Source: Escherichia virus TH30. From it: a DNA stretch of 51,754 nucleotides. The stretch lies in the sequence record MT446404.1; one strand, written 5' to 3'. Every line of letters begins with the position of its first letter. The first letter of the stretch is position 1. The notes below the pieces were generated by a model that was not told where the DNA came from, made no database searches, and saw only the letters and a list, made by a program, of their open reading frames with translations. This document shows, piece after piece, positions 21,672 through 43,504 of the stretch. Position numbers and translations under genes: made by a program.

Positions 21672-21680
21672 ATTATACCA
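21672..21680 (-). promoter_or_regulatory. extended -10 promoter TGGTATAAT upstream of small terminase gene
   Basis: Plus-strand attatacca, about 30 nt upstream of the ATG at 21642. Confidence 0.5.
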
Positions 21681-21691
21681 GATTGCAGGCA

Positions 21692-21716
21692 TAAAAAAAG
21701 CACCCCGAAGGATGCT
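21692..21716 (-). terminator. rho-independent terminator (minus strand, G-U containing stem)
   Basis: GCATCC-ttcg-GGGTGC on the minus transcript followed by U7. Confidence 0.55.
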
Positions 21717-21724
21717 TAAATGAA

Positions 21725-21946
21725 TCAGTCAACGTATTTGATGGCCCCAGGCTTCCGCCCCGATCGAATATCGTTAATCTCGTTAAACACTGAGATGAAC
21801 TTACCGGATACTCGCCACTGCTTTTTCTTCTCATCGTATCGCGCTTGTGCGAATTGTCCGCGCTTGATTAGCTTAGCTACCCAGGCGCAAGATAACGAAA
21901 TGATCAGGACGGAAGCGAACAGAAAACCATAAATAAACGTCAGCAT
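21725..21946 (-). CDS. small membrane protein (73 aa)
   Basis: N-terminal hydrophobic helix, basic C-terminus. Confidence 0.4.
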   Translation of the reverse strand: MLTFIYGFLFASVLIISLSCAWVAKLIKRGQFAQARYDEKKKQWRVSGKFISVFNEINDIRSGRKPGAIKYVD

Positions 21947-22137
21947 TGAATACCCCTTACATAATTAACTAAAAATTTATGAGTCGTTGTATCGACTCCG
22001 CTCATTTGCTTCACCTTTGAAACGGCTTCTTCGGCACTAATGGCCTCAACCTTTGCTTCAAAGTTTTGCTTACACGATGCGCATGTGCGCCCCATTAGCA
22101 AGATAGTTAGCTTGACCTCAAACATATCAAACCTCAT
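21940..22137 (-). CDS. hypothetical protein (65 aa) with CxxC pair
   Basis: ORF only. Confidence 0.3.
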   Translation of the reverse strand: MRFDMFEVKLTILLMGRTCASCKQNFEAKVEAISAEEAVSKVKQMSGVDTTTHKFLVNYVRGIQC

Positions 22138-22310
22138 TGTTAGGTCCGGTTACGGAGTCCGGAAGGCTTTCACAATGCCTCGATTGTATTGCGACTTACA
22201 CTTTGCTTTTGGCGATGCGCTATTTCAATTTGCGGCTTACGAACCGCTCGTTGCCACTTGGTGGCCTCGTCTGTTTACGAGATTAAAGATACCAGTCAGT
22301 GGGATTGCTG

Positions 22311-22505
22311 TCAATCAACTTTTTTAAAAGTTCCATACGTCGGGCAAACAGGGTAGTCGATCGCGACCTTGTTACCCTCGTCGCTGTAGACGTAAACGAA
22401 CCCCTGGGAATCAACCTTTTCCACTGTGTACTCGCATCCAGTAAAGAACTCATAACCGCGCGCACCTATACACTTGATCACGTCACCCTTTTTGATCTTA
22501 CTCAT
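22311..22505 (-). CDS. hypothetical protein (about 64 aa from ATG at 22505)
   Basis: ORF 22311..22568 trimmed to an ATG preceded by GGGGAAAG. Confidence 0.3.
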   Translation of the reverse strand: MSKIKKGDVIKCIGARGYEFFTGCEYTVEKVDSQGFVYVYSDEGNKVAIDYPVCPTYGTFKKVD

Positions 22506-22737
22506 AGATACTTTCCCCATTTTCACGCTTGCCAACCAGCCCCTTAAGATAACCAGCAATCCACACAAATTTGTCGCGAGATATGATGGTCGCTACGGCC
22601 TCATGGTGCTTGGTAATAATTGAGGCAACCAGCTTGTCATCTTTGCGCTCTTTCTTGCTCAGGTCGGAATACGCTGCGTTTAATTGCTTGGCCTTGGCCT
22701 TTACTGCGTTCATCTGCGGATCGGTTAATCCAAACAT
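22498..22737 (-). CDS. hypothetical basic protein (79 aa)
   Basis: ORF only. Confidence 0.35.
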   Translation of the reverse strand: MFGLTDPQMNAVKAKAKQLNAAYSDLSKKERKDDKLVASIITKHHEAVATIISRDKFVWIAGYLKGLVGKRENGESIYE

Positions 22738-23063
22738 TATTCGTAAACCTCATCAATGATTTCGCTGATCTTGTTCATGGTGTCAACCTTGGCGCAATCC
22801 CATTCCGGTGAGCCTGGTTCTTCCCATGGTCCGCCAGGGCCGTGACACGTCATGTTGTCGATAAGTTCCGACACTTCGCTTTCCAGCACATTGCGCATGT
22901 GCTCAATCTGCCAGCATTCAACCGAGTCTTCTGCGTCGCGGTAAGCCTTGAACTCACCGCCGAGAACTTTTTGTGCAGCTTCGGCTGATTCCTTCGTTTC
23001 GTGAACGGTCCGGCGAATCTCTTTGCCGAACTTGCCGACTCCGTATGTGTGAATGTAAATCAT
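22737..23063 (-). CDS. hypothetical acidic protein (108 aa)
   Basis: ORF only. Confidence 0.4.
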   Translation of the reverse strand: MIYIHTYGVGKFGKEIRRTVHETKESAEAAQKVLGGEFKAYRDAEDSVECWQIEHMRNVLESEVSELIDNMTCHGPGGPWEEPGSPEWDCAKVDTMNKISEIIDEVYE

Positions 23064-23272
23064 TCTTCGATCACCTTATATTCATTTTCGCTAATGCTGA
23101 TCTCATCGCCAACGATGACAAACTCGGTTTCACGGATGGTCCTGATTGAAAGGTCGCCATCAATGTAATGACCGGACGTCTCTACCACGTCACCAACTTT
23201 AAAGCCGCATTCTTCCAGAGTAAGTGCATCGTCATCGGTCACATAGTTAACGTCGATAATTTCAATTTTCAT
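23060..23272 (-). CDS. hypothetical acidic protein (70 aa)
   Basis: ORF preceded by conserved promoter cassette. Confidence 0.4.
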   Translation of the reverse strand: MKIEIIDVNYVTDDDALTLEECGFKVGDVVETSGHYIDGDLSIRTIRETEFVIVGDEISISENEYKVIEE

Positions 23273-23329
23273 TTCTGCTTCCTCGTTCGTTTCGATGGGG
23301 TAACTATACAGCTACCCCGATTATGAGTT

Positions 23330-23346
23330 TTAACAAAAAGTGCTAT
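23330..23346 (-). promoter_or_regulatory. conserved 17-bp motif (minus-strand ATAGCACTTTTTGTTAA); upstream stop TAG embedded
   Basis: Followed on the minus strand by a hairpin with TATAGT and CATCGAAACGA before the next ATG. Confidence 0.55.
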
Positions 23347-23741
23347 CGCTTGTGATTTCGTGCATTCTTTTTCATTGCCGCGAAGGCGATAAAGCAGAAC
23401 ATCCCAGGCTCGGTGAATCGAAGTTTTCCATACTGGCGGCACATGCGGCGGAACTTACGCTTATCATTAAGGACGCCAGTTACGCGCTTCTCAGTTACAA
23501 CAAGGCGGCGCGGACCTTTTACTACCACGAAAGTGACTGCTGGGCCGCTTGCGAGATTCAGGTTAAACTTACTGCCTTTCTGGATGGCGTACCAAGTAAG
23601 GCCGTTATCCACATCAATAACATCAGCCACGTTGAGGTGACGGTTTGGCCTGCGTTTAGCTTCGTACACATGACCAACCTGAAAGTGATCTTCGAACAGA
23701 GGCGCTAACCCTGGATGTATTTTAACGCAACGTAATTTCAT
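23343..23741 (-). CDS. hypothetical basic protein (132 aa)
   Basis: ORF only. Confidence 0.4.
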   Translation of the reverse strand: MKLRCVKIHPGLAPLFEDHFQVGHVYEAKRRPNRHLNVADVIDVDNGLTWYAIQKGSKFNLNLASGPAVTFVVVKGPRRLVVTEKRVTGVLNDKRKFRRMCRQYGKLRFTEPGMFCFIAFAAMKKNARNHKR

Positions 23742-23940
23742 GGTTATTCCCCTTCGTTTTCGTCGAATTGTTGATTATTGATCTGAGTGCGAACCTCTTT
23801 GACCATCTCGGAGAACTCATAGGCTGTGCACTGCATAGGCTGAGTAGCCAGGAGTTGCTTAAGAATGACGGCTTGCTTATCTGACAGGTTGATAGTAATC
23901 ATTTTGCTTTCCTCTCGTTTGGTGTGAACTAACTATAACA

Positions 23941-23957
23941 AAACCCGCCGGAGCGGG
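23941..23957 (-). terminator. hairpin CCCGC-cgga-GCGGG with U-run, adjacent to conserved motif
   Basis: Read on minus strand. Confidence 0.45.
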
Positions 23958-23958
23958 T

Positions 23959-23975
23959 TTAGCAATTCGTGCTAT
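23959..23975 (-). promoter_or_regulatory. conserved 17-bp motif (ATAGCACGAATTGCTAA), dyad TAGCA/TGCTA
   Basis: Immediately after stop of 23976..24608. Confidence 0.55.
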
Positions 23976-24608: not shown

Positions 24609-24657
24609 TTTTATATTCCTGAGTAGTGGGCGCGATGTGCGCCCGTTAAGGTTAGTT

Positions 24658-25275: not shown

Positions 25276-25306
25276 TTTAACTTCCTTTCGTGTGGTTTAT
25301 GTGGGG

Positions 25307-25315
25307 ATTATACCA
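25307..25315 (-). promoter_or_regulatory. extended -10 TGGTATAAT inside a hairpin, downstream of conserved motif
   Basis: Plus-strand attatacca; about 35 nt upstream of ATG at 25275. Confidence 0.45.
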
Positions 25316-25333
25316 GTCAGGATGAATCCCCTT

Positions 25334-25350
25334 TTAACAAAGCGTGCTAT
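25334..25350 (-). promoter_or_regulatory. conserved 17-bp motif (ATAGCACGCTTTGTTAA), upstream stop TAG embedded
   Basis: Stop of 25347..26150 is the TAG of the motif. Confidence 0.55.
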
Positions 25351-26150: not shown

Positions 26151-26218
26151 ATTTAATTCCTCAGTTGGTTTGTGTTCACTTGACAGGAGACACTATAGCT
26201 AATGTCTCCGAGCAAGTT

Positions 26219-26235
26219 TTAACAAAAAGTGCTAT
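26219..26235 (-). promoter_or_regulatory. conserved 17-bp motif, upstream stop TAG embedded
   Basis: Adjacent hairpin GGAGACA...TGTCTCC. Confidence 0.55.
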
Positions 26236-26807: not shown

Positions 26808-27232
26808 AAGTAACCCTTCCCTACAGTTTCGCCAACTTCGCGTGATGCCTTTAATTTGTTCCAGAAATCGAACGGGCCGACTGGCTCCCACGCTTTCGGT
26901 TTTCCTGGCTCATTCCACCAACCTAGAACGCAGTCGCTACCGTACGCCGTTCCCATTGGTTTACCGTCGCTGTAGTGGTCCTTGAACACGCGGTCAAGCT
27001 CATCCCCACCAACCTTGATTGATTTGATTTCAAAGCCATAACTCTTCTTCATCACCAAATCATGATCATAAAAGAACCCGTCTACAACGATAGGGTAAGA
27101 ACCAGGATCGCGCGGACTTGTATCTTTCTCATGCAGCTTGCGATAGTTTGGATCGGCATAGATGTTTGGGTTAAGTAAACGAACTCTCATTTGTAATTCC
27201 TCTGATTGGTTGTTTTGCTTCAATAAGGCCAC
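26804..27232 (-). CDS. hypothetical protein (142 aa)
   Basis: ORF only. Confidence 0.4.
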   Translation of the reverse strand: MALLKQNNQSEELQMRVRLLNPNIYADPNYRKLHEKDTSPRDPGSYPIVVDGFFYDHDLVMKKSYGFEIKSIKVGGDELDRVFKDHYSDGKPMGTAYGSDCVLGWWNEPGKPKAWEPVGPFDFWNKLKASREVGETVGKGYL

Positions 27233-27257
27233 TATATCAAATGGCCTTGCGGAAGGT

Positions 27258-27274
27258 TTAACAAAAAGTGCTAT
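27258..27274 (-). promoter_or_regulatory. conserved 17-bp motif, upstream stop TAG embedded
   Basis: Position inferred from stop of 27271..27459. Confidence 0.5.
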
Positions 27275-27459
27275 TCGAATTTTTCGTTATGGTGAATAAC
27301 CTCAGCCACGTAAATCTTTCTCAAGAACCACTCCTGCGTTCCGGTGGAAGTGATTTTGTGCATCTTCCACACCTGGTGCCAAGGCAGGTATTCCATATCC
27401 TCAGCCAGTGCCGTAAAAGCCTTGCCGCAGTGAGTGTAAATCGTGGTGTAAGTGGTCAT
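27271..27459 (-). CDS. hypothetical protein (62 aa)
   Basis: ORF; leader GTATACTTCTTTCATACCAAC shared with the leader of 41883..42116. Confidence 0.4.
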   Translation of the reverse strand: MTTYTTIYTHCGKAFTALAEDMEYLPWHQVWKMHKITSTGTQEWFLRKIYVAEVIHHNEKFE

Positions 27460-27514
27460 TTCGTATCTCCCTTGTTGGTATGAAAGAAGTATACCAGTCA
27501 GGGAGAATATCGTT

Positions 27515-27531
27515 TTAGCAATTCGTGCTAT
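27515..27531 (-). promoter_or_regulatory. conserved 17-bp motif (ATAGCACGAATTGCTAA)
   Basis: Followed by CTGACTGGTATACT extended -10-like element. Confidence 0.5.
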
Positions 27532-28255: not shown

Positions 28256-28321
28256 AATTTACCCCTTGGTTGATTGTTTCACTTCAATGAGTGCACTATA
28301 GCAAATGCACTCACGTCAGTT

Positions 28322-28338
28322 TTAACAAAAAGTGCTAT
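28322..28338 (-). promoter_or_regulatory. conserved 17-bp motif, upstream stop TAG embedded
   Basis: Stop of 28335..28622 is the TAG of the motif. Confidence 0.55.
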
Positions 28339-29439: not shown

Positions 29440-29490
29440 TTCCTCTTTGTTGTCGATAGGGTAATCATAGCTGACTACCCGATTTATTGT

Positions 29491-29507
29491 TTAGCAATTC
29501 GTGCTAT
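29491..29507 (-). promoter_or_regulatory. conserved 17-bp motif, upstream stop TAG embedded
   Basis: Stop of 29504..30055 is the TAG of the motif. Confidence 0.55.
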
Positions 29508-30591: not shown

Positions 30592-31109
30592 ACTACCACC
30601 TCATTTGATTGTTGCGTTTAAGTGAGGTCATTATGATGAGAGTTAACGCGTAAGTCAACCGTAATCGCATGTAAAAATCAGGTCGGGAAACATTTCTGCC
30701 ATGTAGGCCTTGCCACACCTGATGTAAGTAGGCGGTATATCGTGTAACGCATCCTGAAAGGTGATTGCCTATATATGGCCTCATTACCCTGGCGGAATGG
30801 TCATCTTATATAGTAGTGGGAGATATTATCAAATTTGATGGAGGTTGCGCCTAGATAGTCGTTACACAGTATACATAGATATATATAATAATAATAATAT
30901 AGATAAATGGTTGTTATATATAGATATTTTATTGTAACTAATGCGTAAAACAGCGTATGCCGCGTATGCTCATGCCAAATCGTTACACGGCATACATTGG
31001 CTATACATGCGTTACGCACAATTACGCGTATGCGCTGGAAAACGTGTGGCGGGAAAATCCTACCAGGCGATCAGGGATCAGATCTCACCCCATCATTCCC
31101 CCCTCCAAT

Positions 31110-31215
31110 GAATCATTGCTCAATTCGCAACAATCGAAAACACCATTGCAAACGATGCAATATTGCTATATGTGCAATAGTGAAGTGAATCATTGCAATA
31201 GCTGCAACAATCCAT
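31110..31215. repeat. array of at least six ATTGC/GCAAT half-sites including palindromes GCAATATTGC and ATTGCAAT
   Basis: Read directly from sequence. Confidence 0.6.
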
Positions 31216-31226
31216 AAATCGAACGA

Positions 31227-31243
31227 ATAGCACTTTTTGCTAA
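31227..31243 (+). promoter_or_regulatory. conserved 17-bp motif ATAGCACTTTTTGCTAA upstream of first rightward gene
   Basis: Followed by ATGACCGATCAGGAGTGA, TATTAT and CATCGAAACGA (31277-31287). Confidence 0.55.
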
Positions 31244-31305
31244 TGACCGATCAGGAGTGATTCGCTATTATTACTTCATCGAAACGAGACATAGAGAGCA
31301 AGCAA

Positions 31306-31632
31306 ATGAAATACGAAAATCGCGGCCAGGACATCATCAAAATCGAAAACGGCGTTGAATATGTGATGGTAGCTTGCAAGGTTAACGGTATGGATTCATT
31401 CGTTTGGGAAGAAATCAAGCCGGAAGTTAAGAGCCTGACCTGTGTAGCCCAGCCTGACGCAGAACGCGATATTTTCACTCGCTACAGCGCTTATGAAATC
31501 GTTCGTGAAACTGCTTGCTTCTGGTGGATTAAGCCTAACGCTCAGTACCGTCACCCGCGCAAAATCAGCAAGCGCACCATGCGTGAAGCTGGTATCAAAG
31601 AAGCATACGCGGCAGAGTTCGACATCGCATAA
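31306..31632 (+). CDS. hypothetical protein (108 aa)
   Basis: ORF with RBS. Confidence 0.45.
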   Translation: MKYENRGQDIIKIENGVEYVMVACKVNGMDSFVWEEIKPEVKSLTCVAQPDAERDIFTRYSAYEIVRETACFWWIKPNAQYRHPRKISKRTMREAGIKEAYAAEFDIA

Positions 31633-31649
31633 ATAGCACGATTTGCTAA
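31633..31649 (+). promoter_or_regulatory. conserved 17-bp motif ATAGCACGATTTGCTAA
   Basis: Directly after stop TAA; followed by ATGACCAATCAGGAGTGA and CATCGAAACGA. Confidence 0.55.
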
Positions 31650-31706
31650 TGACCAATCAGGAGTGAGTTTGCTAAGATTCACCCCATCGAAACGAAGGAT
31701 ATAGAG

Positions 31707-31988
31707 ATGAAAAACGATATTCAGCAAATGGCCTACCGTATACAGGTCGAGGTTCAGGCCAAACAGAATGATGCGGTAATTCGTGCTGTTCAGCGATTTT
31801 ATGGATGCGCTGAAATAACTGAAAGCATCGCTGACAGAACTACTTGCGTCTTTGAGCATGGCGACGCGGTGCTTCGTGACAAGAAAACGGATAAGGTGAT
31901 CATCATCGTTCGTCCGCATACGACCATCGATCATGACTACGGCGTTACTTTTCAGGCTAACTATTTAACGTTCGACGGGAAGAAATGA
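31707..31988 (+). CDS. hypothetical protein (93 aa)
   Basis: ORF. Confidence 0.4.
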   Translation: MKNDIQQMAYRIQVEVQAKQNDAVIRAVQRFYGCAEITESIADRTTCVFEHGDAVLRDKKTDKVIIIVRPHTTIDHDYGVTFQANYLTFDGKK

Positions 31989-32170
31989 TTATGACCACCG
32001 CTAAAATGTATTGTTACGTTGTGATTGCTGAGCCACGCGAGCCGGAATATGACAGCGAGGTGCACTGCGTATGCCTAAGTGAGCAAATGGCAGAGCAGGT
32101 TTGCGAGAAGATGAACGCAAGCGATCGCTTCAATACCTACGACTACTACGAAACGGAGCTACAGAAATGA
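31985..32170 (+). CDS. hypothetical acidic protein (61 aa)
   Basis: ORF, ATGA overlap with upstream gene. Confidence 0.35.
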   Translation: MIMTTAKMYCYVVIAEPREPEYDSEVHCVCLSEQMAEQVCEKMNASDRFNTYDYYETELQK

Positions 32171-32809: not shown

Positions 32810-32826
32810 ATAGCACTTTTTGTTAA
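32810..32826 (+). promoter_or_regulatory. conserved 17-bp motif ATAGCACTTTTTGTTAA
   Basis: Directly after stop; followed by hairpin and CATCGAAACGA. Confidence 0.55.
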
Positions 32827-32827
32827 A

Positions 32828-32846
32828 AGCCCCTCGCGGGCTTTTG
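32828..32846 (+). terminator. hairpin AGCCC-ctcgc-GGGCT plus T-run
   Basis: Read from sequence. Confidence 0.5.
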
Positions 32847-32890
32847 CTATTATTACTCCATCGAAACGAAGCAATCACGGAGACACAAAA

Positions 32891-33196
32891 ATGATTAACA
32901 TGAACCTTTTCACTAAAGCTGACCACGAAAATATGCAAGCGCTGGCAGACCTTTTCGCCTCCGCCGAAATGGCTGAGATGTTCATGACTGAGAATGAGTT
33001 CCGTGATGGCATCAGTAACTCAATCGAAACTAATTTCGGTGATGCTCGTATCACTGGCGCGATGTTCGCAAACGTTGCTCGTAAATTCTTCCAGTCATTC
33101 CGCGACGCTCGCCACGCAAAAGGCGCTTTCCGCTCCTCGATGGATACTGCTGAAGAGATTAATGCATACATCGAACGCAATAGCACGAATTGCTAA
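32891..33196 (+). CDS. hypothetical acidic protein (101 aa)
   Basis: ORF; last codons NSTNC-stop lie inside the next motif. Confidence 0.4.
   Translation: MINMNLFTKADHENMQALADLFASAEMAEMFMTENEFRDGISNSIETNFGDARITGAMFANVARKFFQSFRDARHAKGAFRSSMDTAEEINAYIERNSTNC
33180..33196 (+). promoter_or_regulatory. conserved 17-bp motif ATAGCACGAATTGCTAA overlapping the 3-prime end of the upstream gene
   Basis: Followed by TATAGT and CATCGAAACGAAACGA. Confidence 0.55.
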
Positions 33197-33262
33197 ACCT
33201 CAATGCCAAGGATGGCGTATAGTTACTTCATCGAAACGAAACGAGCACACCGGAGATAAAAA

Positions 33263-33502
33263 ATGAGCATCCAGGCCACTAAAACAGAAAAGCGTCTCTT
33301 CACTAAGCCTGGTTCAAAAGGCGTTGAGATGATGTTGGTAAACGGTATCGTGTTTAATAACTGCGGCAATGTTCGCGTAGGAAACAAATATACCTGGCTG
33401 AGAACTCTCCTTACTGAAGATAGCCTCAATGCAATGATCATTAACGGTACATTAATTGAAGTCCAGGACGACTGGAAGTTTTACACAGCAAAGCAGCACT
33501 AA
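33263..33502 (+). CDS. hypothetical protein (79 aa)
   Basis: ORF with RBS GGAG. Confidence 0.4.
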   Translation: MSIQATKTEKRLFTKPGSKGVEMMLVNGIVFNNCGNVRVGNKYTWLRTLLTEDSLNAMIINGTLIEVQDDWKFYTAKQH

Positions 33503-33556
33503 TAAATTATATCGCCGCCGGACGACATCCGGCATAAATCAAATGAGGAAGTAAAA

Positions 33557-34406: not shown

Positions 34407-35086
34407 AAAAGGTAATTTACTGCTTGTTCGACGGTTCCGGTATCGCTGGTCTACCATGGGCGGAAAATGGTCACACCGTCTACTGCTTCAACGCGGACTC
34501 TGGTAATCATGGAGAATATCACATCAAGATGCAGCATGAGAATATCCACTACGTCAACATGTGGATTGACAAGGATTTCATCACCAAGTGCGAATTGCTC
34601 GGCCTGCCTCCGGCGCAAATGGTTATCGGCTTCCCTGATTGCACGCTGTTCTCTCAGTCAGGATCGCAGCATGAGCGCGGGGAAGATGAACTGGCGTACG
34701 CCCTGGCAAATGCGAAGCTCGTCGAAGAAGTCGGTAATCACTTCCAGGCACCATGGATGGTTGAGAATCCGGTAGGTAAGCTGTCAAGCCTGTGGCGTAA
34801 GCCTGACTTCTACTTCAATCCGTATGAGTACGGCGGGCTAATGAAGGCTCACGATCTACCGTACCACGAAAAAATGCCTAAATACGACGGCTACACGAAG
34901 AAAACTTGCATCTGGCATGGCAACGGATTCGTTGAGCCGGTTAAGAAGCCTGGCCCGATTAACATTGGCTTCTTTTGGGGATGGAAATTCCTCGGAGGGA
35001 AGTCTGCTAAGACAAAGCAGTTGCGCTCACTGACTCCACGTGGATTTGCGCGCGCCGTATACCTGGCGAATCATTTAACCAAATAG
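34403..35086 (+). CDS. compact DNA cytosine-C5 methyltransferase-like protein (227 aa)
   Basis: LFDGSGIAG (motif I FxGxG-like), GFPDCTLFSQSG (motif IV PC-like with Cys), ENPVGKL (motif VI ENV-like). Confidence 0.5.
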   Translation: MKKVIYCLFDGSGIAGLPWAENGHTVYCFNADSGNHGEYHIKMQHENIHYVNMWIDKDFITKCELLGLPPAQMVIGFPDCTLFSQSGSQHERGEDELAYALANAKLVEEVGNHFQAPWMVENPVGKLSSLWRKPDFYFNPYEYGGLMKAHDLPYHEKMPKYDGYTKKTCIWHGNGFVEPVKKPGPINIGFFWGWKFLGGKSAKTKQLRSLTPRGFARAVYLANHLTK

Positions 35087-35099
35087 CACTAATTGCTAA
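35083..35099 (+). promoter_or_regulatory. conserved 17-bp motif ATAGCACTAATTGCTAA, upstream stop TAG embedded
   Basis: Followed by terminator-like hairpin and CATCTCATCGAAACGAAAC. Confidence 0.55.
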
Positions 35100-35100
35100 A

Positions 35101-35118
35101 GCCCTTCGGGGCTTTTCC
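35101..35118 (+). terminator. hairpin AGCCC-ttcg-GGGCT plus T-run
   Basis: Read from sequence. Confidence 0.5.
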
Positions 35119-35164
35119 TGTATATTCATCTCATCGAAACGAAACACACTAAAGGAAAATAATC

Positions 35165-38563: not shown

Positions 38564-38565
38564 TA

Positions 38566-38781: not shown

Positions 38782-38811
38782 GTTGCGGCCTCGTTAAGTT
38801 GATTTGTTTAA

Positions 38812-38820
38812 ATAATACCA
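38812..38820 (-). promoter_or_regulatory. extended -10 promoter TGGTATTAT upstream of holin
   Basis: Plus-strand ataatacca about 30 nt upstream of holin ATG. Confidence 0.45.
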
Positions 38821-38895
38821 GATATTACTCCTTGACATAAACGAAAAAAGGCGACCTTAAAGGCCACCTCTTTGTAACTTCATGTTTTTTATAAT

Positions 38896-39069: not shown

Positions 39070-39123
39070 GATTAAATCCTCTGATAGTGAGATGTAAATA
39101 TAGCGCCAATCGGCGCCACATGT

Positions 39124-39140
39124 TAGGCAAAAAGTGCTAT
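39124..39140 (-). promoter_or_regulatory. variant conserved motif (ATAGCACTTTTTGCCTA)
   Basis: Immediately after HNH gene stop. Confidence 0.4.
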
Positions 39141-39141
39141 T

Positions 39142-39618
39142 TCAAGATCCGTGACTTCGATGGAATCCATGAATCTTTTCAGCATCCTTTCTTGCTATCA
39201 AAGCGTCATCGAACGAATCTCCATAATAAAGGATCTTTGTTTTTCCATTTATTTTTATCTGCGCTATCCATTTATTTTTCATATTGTTCCAAGCAACACC
39301 AACAGTTCCGCTCGTGTTTGTTGATGGCTTACGCTTGTTCCTGTTGTTGATTAACCTTGTAACCATTCTTAGGTTTTCAATTCTATCATCACCAGGAACG
39401 TGATTTATATGATCTATCTCCATACCATCTGGTATAGTGCCGTTGTGCATCTCCCATACGATTCTATGTCTTGGCGTAATTGTGTCATATCTACGGATAT
39501 ACCAATAACCCCTATGATGCCTACTCCCAGCTTCATCACCAGGCTTCAATCTTGTGCAGTGAGGGTCCTTCCAAAATACCCGTCCATCTTTATAGTATAA
39601 GAAATCATTCCAATTCAT
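39142..39618 (-). CDS. HNH homing endonuclease (158 aa)
   Basis: EIDHINHVPGDDRIENLRMVTR motif; paralogue of 16915..17397 and 40836..41321. Confidence 0.85.
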   Translation of the reverse strand: MNWNDFLYYKDGRVFWKDPHCTRLKPGDEAGSRHHRGYWYIRRYDTITPRHRIVWEMHNGTIPDGMEIDHINHVPGDDRIENLRMVTRLINNRNKRKPSTNTSGTVGVAWNNMKNKWIAQIKINGKTKILYYGDSFDDALIARKDAEKIHGFHRSHGS

Positions 39619-39672
39619 CTAATCATCCTCTCGTTTCTATAAAACAATAATAGCGCCATATAGGCGCTATGT

Positions 39673-39689
39673 TTTAACAAAAAGTGCTA
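39673..39689 (-). promoter_or_regulatory. conserved 17-bp motif (ATAGCACTTTTTGTTAA)
   Basis: One nt after TGA stop of 39690..40832; followed by hairpin. Confidence 0.5.
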
Positions 39690-40832
39690 TCAAATATCAC
39701 TCATCTCTGGACGGTAAACGAATCGACCAACCTCACCGAACTCTTTTGAGTACACGATTACAGCTGCTTGGCGATACGATCTCCAACCACCACGGGCCGC
39801 ATATGCGTCTTTTGCTCCTAGTTGGCCGTGAACCTCATCAATCCCCAAAGTTCCTTCCGTGATCGTCTGATGGTGCCAATGGCCACTATGCGTGTAAATA
39901 TATTTGCTCGTACCAAACTCTTCGCGGAAGTCAGTAGCCATTGCCGCCAGTCGAGTATCTGCTTTCTTCATGGTGTGACCATGAGTGTACCCCAGCAATG
40001 TCTTACCCCACTTGGTACGGTGAAGAATCATAGGAGACGTATCAACCGTTACGCGCACCTCATCTTCAAAGTATGCCGCCATTGCAGCGCGGAGCCAAAT
40101 CATACCCGCCTGATCATGATTCCCTTCAATGATCTGGATTTCGACCTCTTCGTGCTTATCCAGCATTAGCGCCACCGCGCGGCGTACGGAACGGATTGCA
40201 ACGTGAACTAGCTTGGCGTATCGACTATCCTGATCCAGTACGTGACCGCTTGCAGGCGTCACTGCGTCCAGGCCATCAGAGTGAAGGAAGTCACCGCCGA
40301 TTAGCAGAACTGCTTTCTTAGCCTTCGGTGATACGCCTACGGAATAATCAAAGAAGTTTTTCAGCACTTTCTCTGAGATGTCGGTGCTGTAGTTCTCACC
40401 GCATTCATGCTTGTGGGCCATCGCGCCAATATGAAGATCGAATACAGGATAGAGCGCCAGGAGATTTTCATCATAGCTAGGCTCGCCAAGGATAGGCTGA
40501 GCCGCCGCGCGCGGGAGTTCGTCACAGAATGCTTCAATTGCAGCATCCATCATGGCGGCTAACTTTTCCTTGTCCTGATCGGTCTTAATCCAGCGGATTT
40601 TCTCGTTGCCTTCCGCGTCAATCATAGTTGATGTGGCCTTAACCATGAAGCCGTCAGGCACATATTTAGCAACTGCTTTATTGCCATGCCCGTGACCTTT
40701 ACGAGCAAGGTTACTTGAGCGCTGCTCAACTGTACGAATGTTCATCCCGTATTCTTGGGCGATTTGACGAAGTGTTTTACCAGCTTCGCGCTCAGCAATG
40801 AATTGTTCGTCACTAATCTTCTGCATAGCCAT
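39690..40832 (-). CDS. HTH-domain plus calcineurin-like metallophosphoesterase (380 aa)
   Basis: N-terminal HTH-like LRQIAQEYGMNIRTVEQR; GDFLHSD and GNHD metal-binding motifs. Confidence 0.55.
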   Translation of the reverse strand: MAMQKISDEQFIAEREAGKTLRQIAQEYGMNIRTVEQRSSNLARKGHGHGNKAVAKYVPDGFMVKATSTMIDAEGNEKIRWIKTDQDKEKLAAMMDAAIEAFCDELPRAAAQPILGEPSYDENLLALYPVFDLHIGAMAHKHECGENYSTDISEKVLKNFFDYSVGVSPKAKKAVLLIGGDFLHSDGLDAVTPASGHVLDQDSRYAKLVHVAIRSVRRAVALMLDKHEEVEIQIIEGNHDQAGMIWLRAAMAAYFEDEVRVTVDTSPMILHRTKWGKTLLGYTHGHTMKKADTRLAAMATDFREEFGTSKYIYTHSGHWHHQTITEGTLGIDEVHGQLGAKDAYAARGGWRSYRQAAVIVYSKEFGEVGRFVYRPEMSDI

Positions 40833-40835
40833 TTT

Positions 40836-41321
40836 TTATTCTCCGTGATTCTTGTGAAATTTAAATTTTCTTTGAAATTGCATTCTACACAATTTCGCTT
40901 CTTCTATCGAGTTAAAGTAACCAAGATGCATTAACTTTCCGTCAACCTTTATCCTTGCGCAATACTTTGATAGCGGCTTGTGCCACGACACGCCCGTAAC
41001 TCCGGTTGAATTATCAATTCGTATCGACTGGTTTCTTCCGTTTTCCTTTCTTGTGACAAGCCTGAGGTTAGATATGCTGTTATTGCTCCTGTCATGGTCT
41101 ATATGGTCTATCTCCATTCCATTAGGAATTTCACCGTTATGTATATACCATACAACAATATGAACCCTATAGTTTTTCTTGTTAAACATCATTTGCCAGT
41201 ATCCAGTCACTTTACTGGCGCAACCGCACTTGCTTCCAACCTTTATCTTTTTACTCTTTGATTTCTTCCATACTAAATGAAGTTCATCATCATACTCTAC
41301 AAAATCAATAAGCTCATTCAC
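40836..41321 (-). CDS. HNH homing endonuclease (161 aa)
   Basis: EIDHIDHDRSNNSISNLRLVTRKEN motif. Confidence 0.85.
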   Translation of the reverse strand: MNELIDFVEYDDELHLVWKKSKSKKIKVGSKCGCASKVTGYWQMMFNKKNYRVHIVVWYIHNGEIPNGMEIDHIDHDRSNNSISNLRLVTRKENGRNQSIRIDNSTGVTGVSWHKPLSKYCARIKVDGKLMHLGYFNSIEEAKLCRMQFQRKFKFHKNHGE

Positions 41322-41402
41322 ATTAAAATCCTTATCGTGTTAGTAAGTAGATGATAATAAAACCAATTAGCGGCGGTAATAATACAGGAATTAAGCAGCG
41401 CA

Positions 41403-41654
41403 TCAAATCTTTTTCAACCATGTTGTTAAAGTATCTGGCTCAACCGCTTCACCTGCACTCTCTGATTCGCTGGGAACCATCATACCAGTTGAAGGGCTAA
41501 AATACATCAGGCGATAGCCGCCACCGCGCGAACATGGCACATCTTCGAAGTCAGAAGGCAACCAGTCAGCGAAAGGGATGATCGCGAACGTCTCATTGTT
41601 GTTGCTGCAAGTCGGATATTTGTCAGCGTCAAAATCAAGGCCTGGTAAGTTCAT
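41403..41654 (-). CDS. hypothetical acidic protein (83 aa)
   Basis: ORF. Confidence 0.35.
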   Translation of the reverse strand: MNLPGLDFDADKYPTCSNNNETFAIIPFADWLPSDFEDVPCSRGGGYRLMYFSPSTGMMVPSESESAGEAVEPDTLTTWLKKI

Positions 41655-41896
41655 TTATATCTTCTCGCTGCGTCTTTCGTTGCTTGAATGCAGGCTTTGT
41701 AGTCAATCTTCACCGGAGTTGCCGGAACTCTGATCAGCTTACGTGGCCTTTCGTGTATATACGTCATTTTCCCGTTAAAGATGACGCATATGTCTTTAAT
41801 ATCGAAGTACTTGGCTATAAGCGCAATGTCATCACTTATTCCTGCTTCCTTGCAGTGATTCCAAACAGCCTGACGGCCTACATCAACAGTTACCAT
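41651..41896 (-). CDS. hypothetical protein (about 82 aa from MVTVDVG)
   Basis: ORF trimmed to ATG with GGGGAG RBS. Confidence 0.3.
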   Translation of the reverse strand: MVTVDVGRQAVWNHCKEAGISDDIALIAKYFDIKDICVIFNGKMTYIHERPRKLIRVPATPVKIDYKACIQATKDAARRYK

Positions 41897-42116
41897 AAAT
41901 ATCAAAGCTCCCCGACATGGCCTGATAATCTGCGATAGGCAAATGACCATAAGCGCCCTTGAGATAAGTAACAGCAATAACCTCATCCAGTCCGCCATCC
42001 TTGCCAAGCGCCAGCGCTTCACTTGCGCAATCATTAGCCAGGCGAAGCAGGTGCGGCAGTAAAATATTTTTACGGTATGCTTGCTGGTTGTAAGTGCTAA
42101 AAGGTTGCTTCTTCAT
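41883..42116 (-). CDS. hypothetical protein (77 aa)
   Basis: ORF; leader shares GTATACTTCTTTCATACCAAC with the leader of 27271..27459. Confidence 0.35.
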   Translation of the reverse strand: MKKQPFSTYNQQAYRKNILLPHLLRLANDCASEALALGKDGGLDEVIAVTYLKGAYGHLPIADYQAMSGSFDIYGNC

Positions 42117-42173
42117 GGTGATTCCTCGTCTCGTTGGTATGAAAGAAGTATACCCGCTCGGCGGCGGGTATGT

Positions 42174-42190
42174 TTAGCAATTAGTGCTAT
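42174..42190 (-). promoter_or_regulatory. conserved 17-bp motif (ATAGCACTAATTGCTAA), upstream stop TAG embedded
   Basis: Followed by hairpin TACCCGC...GCGGGTA with TATACT. Confidence 0.55.
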
Positions 42191-42426
42191 TGTGCGAAAT
42201 CTTCAGGGCACTCGCGCTTATAGTCTTCCATATCTTTTCGTATTGCTTTAACCCATGTATTGATCGGCTGATCCTGCACCTCTTCGAATGACATATCCAG
42301 ATCTGAGAACGCCCAGGCATCACCCTTAAAACCAGCTTTCGTTAACACCTCACAAACGACAGCGCGAAATAAAAGATACTTACCTTTGTCGGTTAAATTG
42401 ATTTGTACACTGCTCATTTTAAACAC
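42187..42426 (-). CDS. hypothetical acidic protein (79 aa)
   Basis: ORF. Confidence 0.4.
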   Translation of the reverse strand: MFKMSSVQINLTDKGKYLLFRAVVCEVLTKAGFKGDAWAFSDLDMSFEEVQDQPINTWVKAIRKDMEDYKRECPEDFAQ

Positions 42427-43147
42427 TCCGTTTACGTGGTTTTTTACGGCTTACGCCAGGGCAAATATCAGCGACGCTAACGTATGTCGTTTTCTGCGTC
42501 TCGCCTTCTTCAAGTTTTCGCATGACAAAAATCACGCTACCTTTATTGTTGCCATCGACAGGCTTTCCGGTCAGTCCAGAGATGAAGGCCAACCGCCCCG
42601 TCCGGCAATATTCCTGGCTATCAATCTCTGTGATGTCAGCCTCAATCCAGATGATTTCAGCCGCGTTGCGCCGGGCCTCGGCAAACCATGCCGTAGAGTT
42701 ATCACCAGGAAGCAACATATCAATCTGATTGTTGTGCTCCATTTGCTCAATCGCTTTCTTCACGAAAGGATCTGGATGTGAGTACGGCGGATTCAGCCAG
42801 ATATGCTTATTGCTACCCCACCAAATTTTGAGACAGTTCACATGTTCGCTGTAGAACTTTTCGCAAACAGCATTGTTAGCGCTGGCGGCGGCGTCAATGT
42901 CATACTTCCCGTAACGCGACTCCATCCATGAGATCACTTCTCTGTCAGTGGCCCAAAGGTCACGCACAGCGTCAGGCGTCTTGCTTCCGGCGTATCGGTT
43001 TCCAGTTACCTGATAGAAGGTGTCCGGCTTAACCGCTTGATAGTGACCGTTACCAGGAACAAGCGCATTGGTAACAAAGTTTTCACGTTCGATCTGCTCA
43101 AAGCTAACGAATGCGTCATGAGTATCTTTGTCGTTTGAGTCGATCAT
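42419..43147 (-). CDS. dam: DNA N6-adenine methyltransferase (Dam-like, 242 aa)
   Basis: Catalytic NPPY motif (WLNPPYSHP). Confidence 0.75.
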   Translation of the reverse strand: MIDSNDKDTHDAFVSFEQIERENFVTNALVPGNGHYQAVKPDTFYQVTGNRYAGSKTPDAVRDLWATDREVISWMESRYGKYDIDAAASANNAVCEKFYSEHVNCLKIWWGSNKHIWLNPPYSHPDPFVKKAIEQMEHNNQIDMLLPGDNSTAWFAEARRNAAEIIWIEADITEIDSQEYCRTGRLAFISGLTGKPVDGNNKGSVIFVMRKLEEGETQKTTYVSVADICPGVSRKKPRKRSV

Positions 43148-43148
43148 C

Positions 43149-43421
43149 TCATTTAACCTCGGTAACTTTGCAGTTATTCACAGCGACGAACCCGCCGACG
43201 CTAACTTTAACCTGACTTTCAGTCACGTTATAAACTGCCTTGCCTAAGAAAGTTTGCAGTTCATAGTGATCGCCTTCACGCTCAATAACAACGCCCTTAT
43301 CTGAAACAATCTGCGACTTGGTTACTGTGAATGATTCCTTGCCGCAATCGTAAAACTTGGTATCTTCTGCACAACCTGCCATTGCCACAACTGCCAGTAG
43401 GGCGATGATTGACTTTTTCAT
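43149..43421 (-). CDS. lipoprotein (90 aa)
   Basis: Signal plus lipobox MKKSIIALLAVVAMAGC. Confidence 0.5.
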   Translation of the reverse strand: MKKSIIALLAVVAMAGCAEDTKFYDCGKESFTVTKSQIVSDKGVVIEREGDHYELQTFLGKAVYNVTESQVKVSVGGFVAVNNCKVTEVK

Positions 43422-43487
43422 TTTGATTTCCTTGGTTGGTTACTTCGTTTCGATGAGGTGATAATACACCACCTCACCGATTCGTCT

Positions 43488-43504
43488 TTAGCAATTCGTG
43501 CTAT
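43488..43504 (-). promoter_or_regulatory. conserved 17-bp motif; upstream stop is the TAA of the motif
   Basis: Followed by hairpin with TATTAT loop and CATCGAAACGAAG. Confidence 0.55.

What the first reader, a model, noticed from the sequence alone, without database searches (positions are those of the whole stretch)
21672..43504. Conserved elements downstream of the motif: extended -10 boxes and a CATCGAAACGA leader
Downstream of many motif copies there is a TATAGT, TATTAT or TGGTATA(A/C)T box, often in a hairpin loop, then CATCGAAACGA about 20-30 nt before the ATG (e.g. 31277-31287, and by the minus-strand copies at 23281-23300 and 43440-43460). Two distant leaders are nearly identical (GTATACTTCTTTCATACCAAC at 27460-27495 and 42125-42160). 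Extended -10 boxes also precede the small terminase (21672-21680) and holin (38812-38820) genes.
Basis: seen in the sequence. Interest (0 to 1): 0.6.

Follow-up and report, generated by a model that had tools for sequence, protein, structure and literature searches.

The report
Repeated early-promoter cassettes of T1-like phage
The boxes and the CATCGAAACGA "leader" are the -10 element, start site and first transcribed bases of about twenty copies of one compact promoter cassette for the early genes of a T1-like coliphage, and the motif upstream of them matches, in sequence and in spacing, the binding site of the host stress regulators MarA/SoxS/Rob.

Summary
The window is a T1-like (Drexlerviridae) coliphage. 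It carries 20 copies of one cassette: a 20-bp box (ATAGCACnnnTTGYTAAAAc), 18 bp of spacer, a TAnnnT -10 hexamer (G at -14 in 15/20, full TGn in 9/20), six bases, a CA start, an A/C-rich 18-35 nt leader, SD and ATG. CATCGAAACGA sits at -1..+10. It is the family-wide consensus of that position and recurs at the same offset in ETEP102, Rtp and KP36. A hairpin on the sense strand either fills the spacer (terminator-like) or encloses the -10.

The architecture is the one described for PeSL promoter-terminator cassettes of T4-type phages. The box was published in 2024 as a 21-nt repeat of unknown function. Here it fits the marbox consensus AYnGCACnnWnnRYYAAAY at 13 of its 14 specified positions. It is in forward orientation, 18 bp from the -10, as at E. 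coli micF, which defines a class II MarA/SoxS/Rob promoter.

No AraC-type protein is encoded by the phage. The recognition helix of its only HTH regulator (Cro-like) varies while the box does not. No start-site or binding data exist, and a Keio screen with a T1-like phage did not report rob, marA or soxS.

The parts
1423..1497 (+). Cassette 1. Box ACAGCACGAATAGCTAAAAC at 1423-1442 (2 mismatches to the phage motif), -10 TAGAAT at 1461-1466, predicted +1 at 1473, ATG at 1498.
23273..23346 (-). Cassette 2. Box 23327-23346, -10 TATAGT 23303-23308, CATCGAAACGA 23287-23297 (A+1 at 23296), hairpin 23297-23318 enclosing the -10, ATG at 23272.
23903..23975 (-). Cassette 3. Box 23956-23975, terminator-like hairpin 23941-23960 inside the spacer, TGt-TATAGT 23932-23937, +1 at 23925.
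25276..25350 (-). Cassette 4. Box 25331-25350, TGGTATAAT (hexamer 25307-25312), hairpin GGGGAT...ATCCCC around the -10, +1 at 25300.
26151..26235 (-). Cassette 5. Box 26216-26235, TATAGT 26192-26197 in the loop of hairpin 26186-26209 (-14.8 kcal/mol).
27191..27274 (-). Cassette 6. Box 27255-27274, TGa-TATAGT 27231-27236 in hairpin 27225-27248. The same cassette occurs in T1, TLS and KP36.
27460..27531 (-). Cassette 7. Box 27512-27531, TGGTATACT (hexamer 27488-27493). Shares the 22-nt GGTATACTTCTTTCATACCAAC with cassette 17.
28256..28338 (-). Cassette 8. Box 28319-28338, TGc-TATAGT 28295-28300 in hairpin 28287-28314 (-15.4 kcal/mol).
29440..29507 (-). Cassette 9. Box 29488-29507, TATGAT 29464-29469 in hairpin 29459-29480, leader TATCGACAAC.
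31227..31305 (+). Cassette 10. Box 31227-31246, TATTAT 31266-31271 (spacer 19), CATCGAAACGA 31277-31287, G-U-rich hairpin 31254-31277.
31633..31706 (+). Cassette 11. Box 31633-31652, TGc-TAAGAT 31673-31678 (spacer 20), CATCGAAACGA 31685-31695, hairpin 31660-31685.
32810..32890 (+). Cassette 12. Box 32810-32829, terminator-like hairpin 32824-32846 in the spacer, TGc-TATTAT 32848-32853, CATCGAAACGA 32859-32869.
33180..33262 (+). Cassette 13. Box 33180-33199 (it also encodes the C-terminus ...NSTNC* of ORF 32891..33196), TATAGT 33218-33223, CATCGAAACGA 33229-33239.
35083..35164 (+). Cassette 14. Box 35083-35102, terminator-like hairpin 35098-35115, TATATT 35121-35126, CATCGAAACGA 35132-35142.
39070..39140 (-). 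Cassette 15. Degenerate box 39121-39140 (2 mismatches), hairpin 39098-39121, TATATT 39097-39102.
39619..39690 (-). Cassette 16. Box 39671-39690, terminator-like hairpin 39650-39670 whose 3' arm includes TAT of the -10 TATTAT 39647-39652, leader TATAGAAACGA.
42117..42190 (-). Cassette 17. Box 42171-42190, hairpin 42150-42171, TATACT 42147-42152. Its leader is identical over 22 nt to that of cassette 7.
43422..43504 (-). Cassette 18. Box 43485-43504 (it also encodes ...NSTNC* of ORF 43488..43916), TATTAT 43461-43466 in hairpin 43452-43478, CATCGAAACGA 43445-43455.
46016..46095 (-). Cassette 19 (helicase/primase-like gene 43913..46015). Box 46076-46095, TGt-TATTAT 46053-46058 (spacer 17), leader CAATCGAACGA.
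50174..50253 (-). Cassette 20. Box GTAGCAC... 50234-50253, TGc-TATAAT 50211-50216 (spacer 17) in hairpin 50204-50229, leader AAATCAAACGA.
21672..21680 (-). Extended -10 TGGTATAAT before the small terminase gene. It lies directly after terminator hairpin 21698-21717 and has no box.
38812..38820 (-). Extended -10 TGGTATTAT before the holin gene. It lies after terminator hairpin 38845-38873 and has no box.
46030..46074 (+). Box-less sigma70-type promoter of the Cro-like regulator gene (TTCATG-17-TATAAT at 46053-58) with leader CATCGAAACCA at 46064-46074. Its -10 overlaps the -10 of cassette 19 on the other strand.
15118..15137 (+). Box in reverse orientation relative to the major capsid gene. It forms the spacer and the TGc-TATTAT extended -10 of a minus-strand promoter (TTGCAC-16-TATTAT).
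47630..47649 (-). Box in reverse orientation just upstream of the plus-strand gene 47674..48993. No -10 follows it on its own strand.

Best explanation
The elements are the core-promoter and transcript-start parts of one repeated regulatory cassette. About 20 copies sit in front of the early (small accessory and replication) genes of this T1-like phage.

1. A 20-bp asymmetric box, ATAGCACnnnTTGYTAAAAc, centred near -41.
2. An 18-bp spacer with no -35 hexamer.
3. A -10 hexamer TAnnnT, often with TG or G at -15/-14.
4. A C-rich discriminator.
5. A C(-1)A(+1) start. CATCGAAACGA is the consensus of -1..+10.
6. An A/C-rich, G/U-poor leader of 18-35 nt, then SD and ATG.

Shown: the architecture, its spacing, its statistics and its conservation across genera.

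Inferred:
- Host sigma70 RNA polymerase starts at the A.
- The missing -35 contact is replaced by a monomeric activator bound to the box, as at class II MarA/SoxS/Rob promoters. The most likely reader is one of those host proteins, with Rob the one present without stress. I put this sub-claim at about 0.45-0.5. The promoter-cassette reading as a whole I put at about 0.8.
- The hairpin forms in read-through RNA from the upstream gene. It acts as terminator, attenuator or 3'-end stabiliser, using the only sequence-free parts of the promoter (spacer and discriminator) for its arms.
- The start-region consensus is kept partly by function (CA start, unstructured leader) and partly by common descent and recombination between cassettes.
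For: Identity of the genome: T1-like, up to 93% identical to Escherichia virus TH21 over the best match.

Box: 21 matches to the marbox consensus with <=1 mismatch against 1.2 expected, 0 of 100 shuffles. The same box occurs 13-20 times per genome in T1, TLS, Rtp and KP36 against about 0.1 expected, and about 8 times in Vibrio phage Vc1.

Spacing: 18 bp from box to -10 in 67 of 85 cassettes.

Profile of 86 cassettes:
- box positions 1-7, 11-13 and 15-18 are near-invariant;
- position 14 is C/T and position 10 is always A/T;
- G at -14 in 67/86;
- the T, A and final T of the hexamer are near-invariant;
- C-1 in 58/86 and A+1 in 72/86;
- +2..+12 read TCGAAACGAA at 0.2-0.9 bit.

CATCGAAACGA lies at the same 49-nt offset from the box in ETEP102, Rtp and KP36.

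No -35: the canonical -35/-10 scan gives 32 sites against 30.9 expected.

Marbox rules from the literature:
- consensus AYnGCACnnWnnRYYAAAY (PMC3709825) and gcannwwntgnnaaa (PMC12052159);
- class II means a forward box overlapping the -35, clustered near -41, with no recognisable -35 (PMC10268841);
- micF is class II, centred at -41/-41.5 (PMC8811837; PMC9638938).

Measured here: micF ACAGCACTGAATGTCAAAAC, 18 bp, TAGAAT, with the annotated start 8 nt after the hexamer. inaA and sodA candidate boxes are 18 bp from TATAGT/TATAAT, and fumC 19 bp.

No phage AraC-type protein: Pfam scan of 59 small proteins and phmmer of MarA against six-frame ORFs of the window, T1 and Vc1, best E 0.13.

The only phage HTH protein has a Cro fold. 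Its recognition helix is its least conserved part, while the box is invariant.

Hairpin:
- own-cassette against chimera stems;
- sense-strand RNA MFE -9.35 against antisense -6.79 kcal/mol (Wilcoxon 9e-11) and chimeras -4.97 (Mann-Whitney 9e-15);
- three spacer hairpins score as intrinsic terminators.

PeSL precedent with the same layout and tested promoter and terminator functions: PMC2839356 and PMC4122927.

Homology breaks against phage CJ19 fall at cassettes: 25% of HSP ends within 30 nt, against 9% at random, p about 0.0125. Three indels are bounded by cassettes.
Against: No transcription start sites or binding data for any T1-like phage were found, so +1 is inferred from geometry only.

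A Keio-collection screen with T1-like phage LL5 found LPS-core genes, tolC, ppiB and secB. The paper does not mention rob, marA or soxS (PMC7229145). No single host regulator is therefore essential. Redundancy, or basal activity from the TGn -10 boxes, would have to be invoked.

Vibrio phage Vc1 carries the same box. Whether V. cholerae has a marbox-binding protein was not established.

Box position 19 is A in 57/86 cassettes where the marbox consensus has Y.

The box contains a 5+5 palindrome (TAGCA-N5-TGCTA) centred at -42, which would also suit a dimeric phage activator.

Only 9 of 20 -10 boxes are truly extended.

Hairpins that enclose the -10 lack a U-tract, so termination by them is not evident.

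The inaA, sodA and fumC boxes were located here by consensus only (0-3 mismatches). Their class II status is from memory (Martin et al. 1999).
Confidence: 0.7

Rival explanations
1. Same promoter architecture, but the box is read by a phage-encoded activator and not by host MarA/SoxS/Rob. The reader would be the conserved Cro-like regulator (window 46108..46581; T1 gp23, Rtp52, TLS gp57) binding the palindrome TAGCA-N5-TGCTA centred at -42, or an unrecognised early protein. The regulator gene, which has its own box-less sigma70 promoter, would be immediate-early and would switch on the ~20 cassettes.
For: The palindromic core and the -42 centre suit a dimeric class II activator. The regulator is present in all 824 matching phage records. 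It has a box-less TTCATG-17-TATAAT promoter. The Keio screen reported no host transcription factor. The box is also kept in a Vibrio phage.
Against: Conservation is asymmetric. A1, C7, T11, A17 and A18 are near-invariant without symmetric partners, and position 14 is C/T while its mate G4 is invariant.

The regulator's HTH recognition helix is its most variable segment (TRQAVEEW, SNQTVQGW, NLKTVWGW, SIQVVQQW, CCVRLTNA) in phages that share an identical box.

Its fold is a single-HTH Cro, not a two-HTH AraC.

A chance match of an unrelated site to about 22 bits of marbox consensus, plus the micF spacing, is very unlikely.
Confidence: 0.27
2. The 11-mer has no sequence-specific function of its own. 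It is conserved because the cassettes are paralogous copies kept alike by duplication and recombination (as with PeSLs). Selection acts only on a pyrimidine-purine start and an unstructured, purine/C-rich leader.
For: Information content at +2..+12 is low (0.2-0.9 bit).

Leaders fall into sub-families shared between distant loci, such as the 22 nt identical between 27460-27495 and 42125-42160 and the ATTGAAGCAA family.

Homology breakpoints and three indels coincide with cassettes.
Against: The same consensus is kept across genera whose proteins are only about 50% identical (Rtp, KP36, Vc1). It also follows a promoter with no box (46064-46074). This suggests selection on the start region itself.
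Confidence: 0.35
3. The cassette is mainly an RNA element in long read-through transcripts. Conserved 5' and 3' sequences flank a variable hairpin and act as a processing, termination or antitermination site. The TATAAT-like loops are not promoters.
For: The hairpins favour the sense strand through G-U pairs. Their stems differ in sequence between cassettes. The layout loosely resembles boxA-boxB.
Against: An RNA loop has no reason to be TAnnnT with invariant T, A and T, G at -14 and a CA 7 nt later. The hexamer keeps its 18-bp distance from the box whether the hairpin encloses it or lies wholly upstream. Every copy is oriented with, and placed 18-35 nt before, a gene start. No Rfam family matches.
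Confidence: 0.06

Closest known systems
Class II MarA/SoxS/Rob (marbox/soxbox) promoters of E. coli, e.g. micF
   Same: A 20-bp asymmetric box with GCAC (A site) and YAAA (B site) eight bases apart. Forward orientation. Centre near -41. No -35 hexamer. A canonical -10 lies 18 bp after the box, and micF was measured here at exactly 18 bp. The phage box shares 15 of 20 bases with the micF box and 17 of 20 with the mar box.
   Different: Host sites are degenerate and single. The phage sites are near-consensus and occur about 20 times per 51 kb. Binding by MarA, SoxS or Rob is untested. Position 19 is mostly A, not Y. A hairpin is nested in the spacer.
PeSL (promoter-early stem-loop) composite promoter-terminator cassettes of T4-type phages (Arbiol et al. 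2010, PMC2839356; Comeau et al. 2014, PMC4122927)
   Same: [quoted passage not shown] It holds a promoter and a stem-loop with G-T pairs, placed between the -35 and -10 or overlapping the -10, then an SD. The cassettes flank small accessory genes and coincide with indel and recombination junctions.
   Different: PeSLs have consensus sigma70 -35 hexamers and an AT-rich upstream region. Here the -35 is replaced by the marbox-like box. The phage family is different (siphovirus Drexlerviridae). Terminator and mini-circle functions are not tested here.
The 21-nt direct repeat aaATAGCACnnnTTGnTAAAA reported for phage TLS, and noted for T1, Rtp and Rogue1 (PMC11447400, 2024)
   Same: It is the same upstream motif: same consensus, orientation with transcription, and about 76 nt before start codons.
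   Different: That paper found only three sigma70 promoters. It left the function open (stoperator, enhancer site or UP element) and did not describe the -10 at fixed spacing, the hairpin, the start-region consensus or the marbox match.
T4 middle promoters (MotA box plus -10, with sigma appropriation by AsiA/MotA)
   Same: A phage promoter class in which the -35 is replaced by an activator box (…TGCT…) combined with a good, often extended, -10.
   Different: The MotA box is centred at -30, 11-13 bp from the -10. Here the box ends 18 bp from the -10. No MotA or AsiA homologues were detected.

Membership tests
Class II mar/sox/rob promoter | 20-bp asymmetric box matching AYnGCACnnWnnRYYAAAY (GCAC and YAAA recognition elements) | tested here: met
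   21 sites with <=1 mismatch in the window against 1.2 expected. The 86-cassette profile matches 13 of the 14 specified positions; position 19 is A more often than Y. Consensus from PMC3709825.
Class II mar/sox/rob promoter | Forward orientation relative to transcription | tested here: met
   All 20 cassettes have the GCAC end distal and the AAA end proximal to the -10 and the gene. The rule is from PMC12052159 and PMC10268841.
Class II mar/sox/rob promoter | Box overlaps the -35 position (centre about -41), 18-19 bp from the -10 hexamer | tested here: met
   18 bp in 16 of 20 window cassettes and in 67 of 85 across five genomes. micF measured at 18 bp; inaA and sodA 18, fumC 19. The centre of -40.5 assumes the predicted +1.
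Class II mar/sox/rob promoter | No recognisable -35 hexamer, canonical -10 | tested here: met
   At 17-bp spacing the hexamer is AAAACn. The sigma70 scan shows no enrichment (32 against 30.9).
Class II mar/sox/rob promoter | Bound and activated by MarA, SoxS or Rob | not testable with these tools
   No binding or expression data. The Keio screen with T1-like LL5 reports no rob, marA or soxS hit (PMC7229145), so no single factor is essential.
PeSL-type composite promoter-terminator cassette | Repeated intergenic unit: upstream stop codon, promoter, SD, downstream ATG | tested here: met
   20 copies of about 70-85 nt. The box often overlaps the upstream stop codon or the ORF end.
PeSL-type composite promoter-terminator cassette | Stem-loop between the -35 and -10 or overlapping the -10, with G-T pairs | tested here: met
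   statistics and structures; three score as terminators. PeSL description in PMC2839356, Fig. 2 legend.
PeSL-type composite promoter-terminator cassette | Consensus sigma70 -35 plus AT-rich upstream region | tested here: not met
   No -35. The upstream element is the GC-containing box.
PeSL-type composite promoter-terminator cassette | Cassettes are points of recombination and indels between related phages | tested here: inconclusive
   Against CJ19, 6 of 24 HSP ends lie within 30 nt of a cassette (25% against 9%, p about 0.0125), and three indels are bounded by cassettes. Against T1 the result is not significant (14% against 8%, p 0.11).
Extended -10 promoter | TG at -15/-14 upstream of the -10 hexamer | tested here: inconclusive
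   TGn in 9 of 20 cassettes; G-14 in 15 of 20 (67 of 86 family-wide); T-15 in 41 of 86. Fully met at the box-less promoters at 21672-21680 and 38812-38820.
Sigma54 promoter | GG-N10-GC (TGGCAC-N5-TTGC), start about 12 nt after the GC | tested here: not met
   The box is AG-N8-GC (TAGCAC-N3-TTGC). A sigma70-type -10 follows 22 bp after TTGYTA.
Operator of the phage Cro-like regulator | Symmetric conservation of half-sites, and a recognition helix conserved along with the site | tested here: not met
   Asymmetric profile. The recognition helix is the least conserved segment in 49 homologues, although the fold is Cro.

The most novel reading that the evidence does not exclude
A whole family of virulent phages (Drexlerviridae) has no -35 promoters for its early genes. 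It wires about 20 near-consensus class II marbox promoters to the host's MarA/SoxS/Rob stress regulators. Early phage transcription would then read host signals such as bile salts, salicylate and oxidative stress.

Reversed boxes placed over the capsid and tail-fibre promoters would be repressed by the same protein until replicating phage DNA titrates it, giving an early-to-late timer. The cassettes also serve as recombination joints for swapping accessory genes.
Probability: 0.4. Interest if true: 0.85.

Novelty: new variant of a known kind. Interest (0 to 1): 0.6.

Why it matters
T1-like phages are common, notorious laboratory contaminants and candidates for phage therapy. Their promoters have nevertheless stayed undefined for twenty years. 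The 2024 re-annotation of TLS found only three sigma70 promoters and could not assign a function to the 21-nt repeat.

Recognising the repeat, the 18-bp spacer, the -10 and the CA start as one cassette gives a complete promoter map of the early regions that can be tested directly.

The marbox match makes a specific and cheap prediction: MarA, SoxS or Rob bind and activate these promoters. If that holds, phage early gene expression would be linked to the host antibiotic-resistance and stress regulon, with consequences for phage therapy combined with antibiotics or in bile-rich gut conditions. It would also supply a set of compact activator-dependent promoter-terminator parts.

If the prediction fails, the cassette is still the first PeSL-like system described outside T4-type phages.

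Tried and rejected
- **Sigma54 reading of TAGCAC-N3-TTGC.** Rejected because the spacing is two bases short and a sigma70 -10 follows.
- **TTGYTA as a -35.** Rejected because it lies 22 bp from the -10.
- **IHF, CRP/FNR-type and lambda CII (TTGC-N6-TTGC) sites.** Considered from memory; none fits the spacing.
- **Phage-encoded AraC/MarA homologue.** None found by Pfam or by phmmer of MarA against six-frame ORFs of three phages.
Disfavoured by its variable recognition helix and by the asymmetric site.
- **Known RNA families.** None.
- **Canonical sigma70 scan.** No enrichment.
- **Literature searches for start-site mapping or transcriptomes of T1-like phages.** Nothing found.
- **Literature search for a published link between marbox and phage.** None among 22 papers.
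- **T1 genome paper (PMID 14972552).** Not held.
- **Search for a Rob/MarA homologue in Vibrio cholerae.** Uninformative.
- **A formal covariation count on one fixed structure.** Not attempted because the hairpin register differs between cassettes. I used own-cassette against chimera controls instead.
- **Technical limitation.** Several fetched loci never reached the script folder, so TLS, Rtp and KP36 cassettes were carried in through an alignment.

Full report
**What the window is.** The window is the genome of a T1-like siphovirus (Drexlerviridae). Region 30500-36500 matches Escherichia virus TH21 at 93% and many other T1-like coliphages. The first 427 bases are repeated exactly at the end, so the genome unit is 51,327 bp. 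Structural genes run on the minus strand from about 1.9 to 21.6 kb. The rest consists of arrays of small genes and replication genes in five blocks of alternating direction.

**Check of the observation.**
That is 9 matches against 1.3 expected, and no shuffle of 100 reaches 9.
- Each exact copy lies downstream of a copy of the motif ATAGCACnnnTTGYTAA and 22-34 nt before an ATG.
- Twenty motif copies are followed by a TAnnnT hexamer (TATAGT, TATTAT, TATAAT, TATACT, TATATT and others) at a nearly fixed distance.
- The two near-identical leaders share 22 nt, GGTATACTTCTTTCATACCAAC.
- The extended -10 boxes TGGTATAAT (21672-21680) and TGGTATTAT (38812-38820) before the terminase and holin genes are as described. 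Both follow terminator hairpins and lack the motif.

**Anatomy of the cassette.** I treat the motif as a 20-bp box.
- The -10 hexamer starts 18 bp after the box in 16 of 20 window cassettes, and in 67 of 85 cassettes from the window, T1, TLS, Rtp and KP36.
- A profile of 86 cassettes, which adds Vibrio phage Vc1, shows near-invariant T, A and final T in the hexamer and G at -14 in 67. Full TGn occurs in 9 of 20 window copies.
- The discriminator is C-rich. C is the 6th base after the hexamer in 58 of 86 cassettes and A is the 7th in 72.
- The following positions read T-C-G-A-A-A-C-G-A-A at 0.2-0.9 bit each.

CATCGAAACGA is therefore the family consensus for -1 to +10 of a predicted transcript. 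The seven exact copies are simply those closest to consensus. The same 11-mer sits at the same 49-nt offset from the box in ETEP102, Rtp and KP36, and variants (TCAAAACGA, TTGAAACGA, ACGAAACGA) occur in T1, TLS and Vc1. It also follows the box-less promoter of the regulator gene at 46064-46074. This ties it to the -10 and start module, not to the box. Predicted leaders are 18-35 nt, A/C-rich, and end in an SD.

**The hairpin.** Nearly every cassette can fold between the box and the start. In one class the 5' arm lies in the spacer and the 3' arm in the discriminator, so the -10 sits in or next to the loop. In the other class a GC-rich hairpin fills the spacer and abuts the -10. Three of that second class score as intrinsic terminators whose U-tract is the -10 region itself.
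- Complementarity is a property of each cassette. Watson-Crick stems of >=6 bp occur in 34% of real cassettes against 3.2% of chimeras that join the spacer of one cassette to the discriminator of another, and stems of >=7 bp in 24% against 1% (permutation 0/5000).
- Stem sequences differ between cassettes while the loop CATTTGaTAtAGTG is kept, for example AAGGCC/GGCCTT, AACGTC/GGCGTT, GAGTGCA/TGCACTC and GGAGACA/TGTCTCC.
- The sense strand folds better than the antisense strand as RNA, -9.35 against -6.79 kcal/mol (Wilcoxon 9e-11), and better than chimeras at -4.97 (Mann-Whitney 9e-15).

This points to a structure in RNA. Because the predicted start lies at the 3' foot of the stem, only read-through transcripts from the upstream gene would contain it.

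**What the upstream motif is.** The 2024 re-annotation of TLS reports the consensus aaATAGCACnnnTTGnTAAAA in 21 copies, about 76 nt before start codons. It notes the repeat in T1, Rtp and Rogue1, finds only three sigma70 promoters, and leaves the function open as stoperator, enhancer site or UP element (PMC11447400).

The motif fits the marbox of the E. coli activators MarA, SoxS and Rob, AYnGCACnnWnnRYYAAAY (PMC3709825; also gcannwwntgnnaaa, PMC12052159), at 13 of its 14 specified positions. The exception is position 19, which is A more often than Y. Searching the window with the marbox consensus itself gives 21 hits with at most one mismatch against 1.2 expected.

The conservation is asymmetric, as a marbox is. 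A1, C7, T11, A17 and A18 have no symmetric partners, and position 14 is C/T while G4 is invariant.

Class II marbox promoters have a forward box overlapping the -35, centred near -41, with no recognisable -35 and a normal -10 (PMC12052159 and PMC10268841; micF in PMC8811837 and PMC9638938). The phage cassettes meet each of these rules. In E. coli K-12 I measured micF: box ACAGCACTGAATGTCAAAAC, 18 bp, TAGAAT, with the annotated start 8 nt after the hexamer. The candidate boxes of inaA and sodA lie 18 bp, and that of fumC 19 bp, before a -10-like hexamer. Their class II status is from memory of Martin et al. 1999. The mar marbox ATGCCACGTTTTGCTAAATC shares 17 of 20 bases with the phage box.

**Who reads the box.**
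- No AraC/MarA-type protein is encoded by the phage (Pfam scan of 59 small proteins; phmmer of MarA against six-frame ORFs of the window, T1 and Vc1, best E 0.13).
- Its recognition helix is the least conserved part of the protein in 49 homologues. It differs completely among phages that share an identical box.

This makes it an unlikely reader of the box, although the box does contain a 5+5 palindrome centred at -42. I therefore favour a host MarA/SoxS/Rob-type protein, at about 0.45-0.5, over a phage factor, at about 0.27.

Three things count against the host factor. A Keio screen with T1-like LL5 found only LPS, TolC, PpiB and SecB functions (PMC7229145). The same box occurs in a Vibrio phage. 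There is no binding experiment at all. No paper in the searchable library links marboxes to phage promoters.

**Comparison with known systems.** The layout runs from the upstream stop codon through a promoter, with a stem-loop carrying G-T pairs between the -35 and -10 or over the -10, to the SD and ATG. It is repeated before small accessory genes. This is the PeSL (promoter-early stem-loop) cassette of T4-type phages, in which promoter and terminator/attenuator activities were shown and recombination between cassettes shuffles genes (PMC2839356; PMC4122927).

Consistent with that, 25% of homology end-points between the window and phage CJ19 fall within 30 nt of a cassette, against 9% at random (p about 0.0125). 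Three replaced segments (27276-27513, 31288-31991, 32871-33542) are bounded by cassettes. The same test against T1 is not significant.

The difference from PeSLs is the marbox-like box in place of a -35 and AT-rich region. I file the finding as a new variant of a known kind: a PeSL-like promoter-terminator cassette with class II activator-dependent design.

**Verdict.** 'Extended' holds for only about half of the boxes, and the 11-mer is a consensus start region, not a discrete element. What remains inferred is the start site, the hairpin's role and the identity of the activator. The marbox match is the most interesting lead and can be tested directly.

Noticed in passing
window 1-427 and 51328-51754: The two ends of the window are 100% identical over 427 nt. 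The record is a 51,327-bp genome unit with overlapping ends (circular permutation or terminal redundancy of the assembly). ORF 85..402 is the same as ORF 51412..51729.
   Followed up: yes
window 15118-15137 (+); also T1 L002 15070-15086 (-) and TLS L003 15026-15042 (-): A box in reverse orientation lies inside the promoter of the major capsid gene. On the minus strand the sequence reads TTGCAC-16 bp-TGcTATTAT, and the box forms the spacer and the extended -10. A protein bound to the box would be placed to repress this late promoter. The arrangement is conserved in T1 and TLS.
   Followed up: partly
window 47630-47649 (-); also T1 L002 34902-34918 and Rtp L004 33762-33778: A second reverse-oriented box with no -10 of its own lies between TGCTACAAT and the start of the 439-aa gene 47674..48993 (tail-fibre region). 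It is conserved next to the tail-fibre genes of T1 and Rtp.
   Followed up: partly
window 30785-31226: A non-coding stretch of about 440 nt lies between the two divergent early arms. It holds AT-rich ATATAGATA repeats, CGCGTATGC x3, and palindromes of the form ATTGCA-N5-TGCAAT (31145-31161, 31192-31208, and a similar one between them). It could be a pac/origin region or operators for the Cro-like regulator.
   Followed up: partly
window 46030-46100: Face-to-face promoters share one -10 region. TATAAT (+, 46053-46058) serves the Cro-like regulator gene and TATTAT (-, same bases) serves the 700-aa helicase/primase-like gene. The regulator's leader contains the reverse complement of the box just before its SD.
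   Followed up: partly
window 33180-33196 and 43488-43504: The box doubles as coding sequence. ORFs 32891..33196 and 43488..43916 both end ...NSTNC* (AAT AGC ACG AAT TGC TAA). Several homologues of the regulator in other phages end ...STNC or ...STNS for the same reason.
   Followed up: no
window 14040-14085 (-): The one-mismatch copy CATCAAAACGA (14053-14063) is not a leader. It lies in the 17-bp spacer of a canonical TTGACA-17-TACATT promoter that follows a terminator downstream of the capsid gene.
   Followed up: partly
L011 (Vibrio phage Vc1, NC_054898.2), e.g. 30764, 34031, 36392, 47318: A Drexlerviridae phage recorded on Vibrio cholerae carries about 8 copies of the same box, with the same 18-bp spacing, TATTAT and the leader CAACGAAACGA. 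Its Cro-like regulator is only about 44-47% identical to the window's.
   Followed up: partly
window 39142-39618 and 40836-41192 (-): Two HNH endonuclease genes with AP2-like domains (Pfam HNH_3, E 9e-40) flank the 380-aa gene 39690..40832. They are likely homing endonucleases.
   Followed up: no
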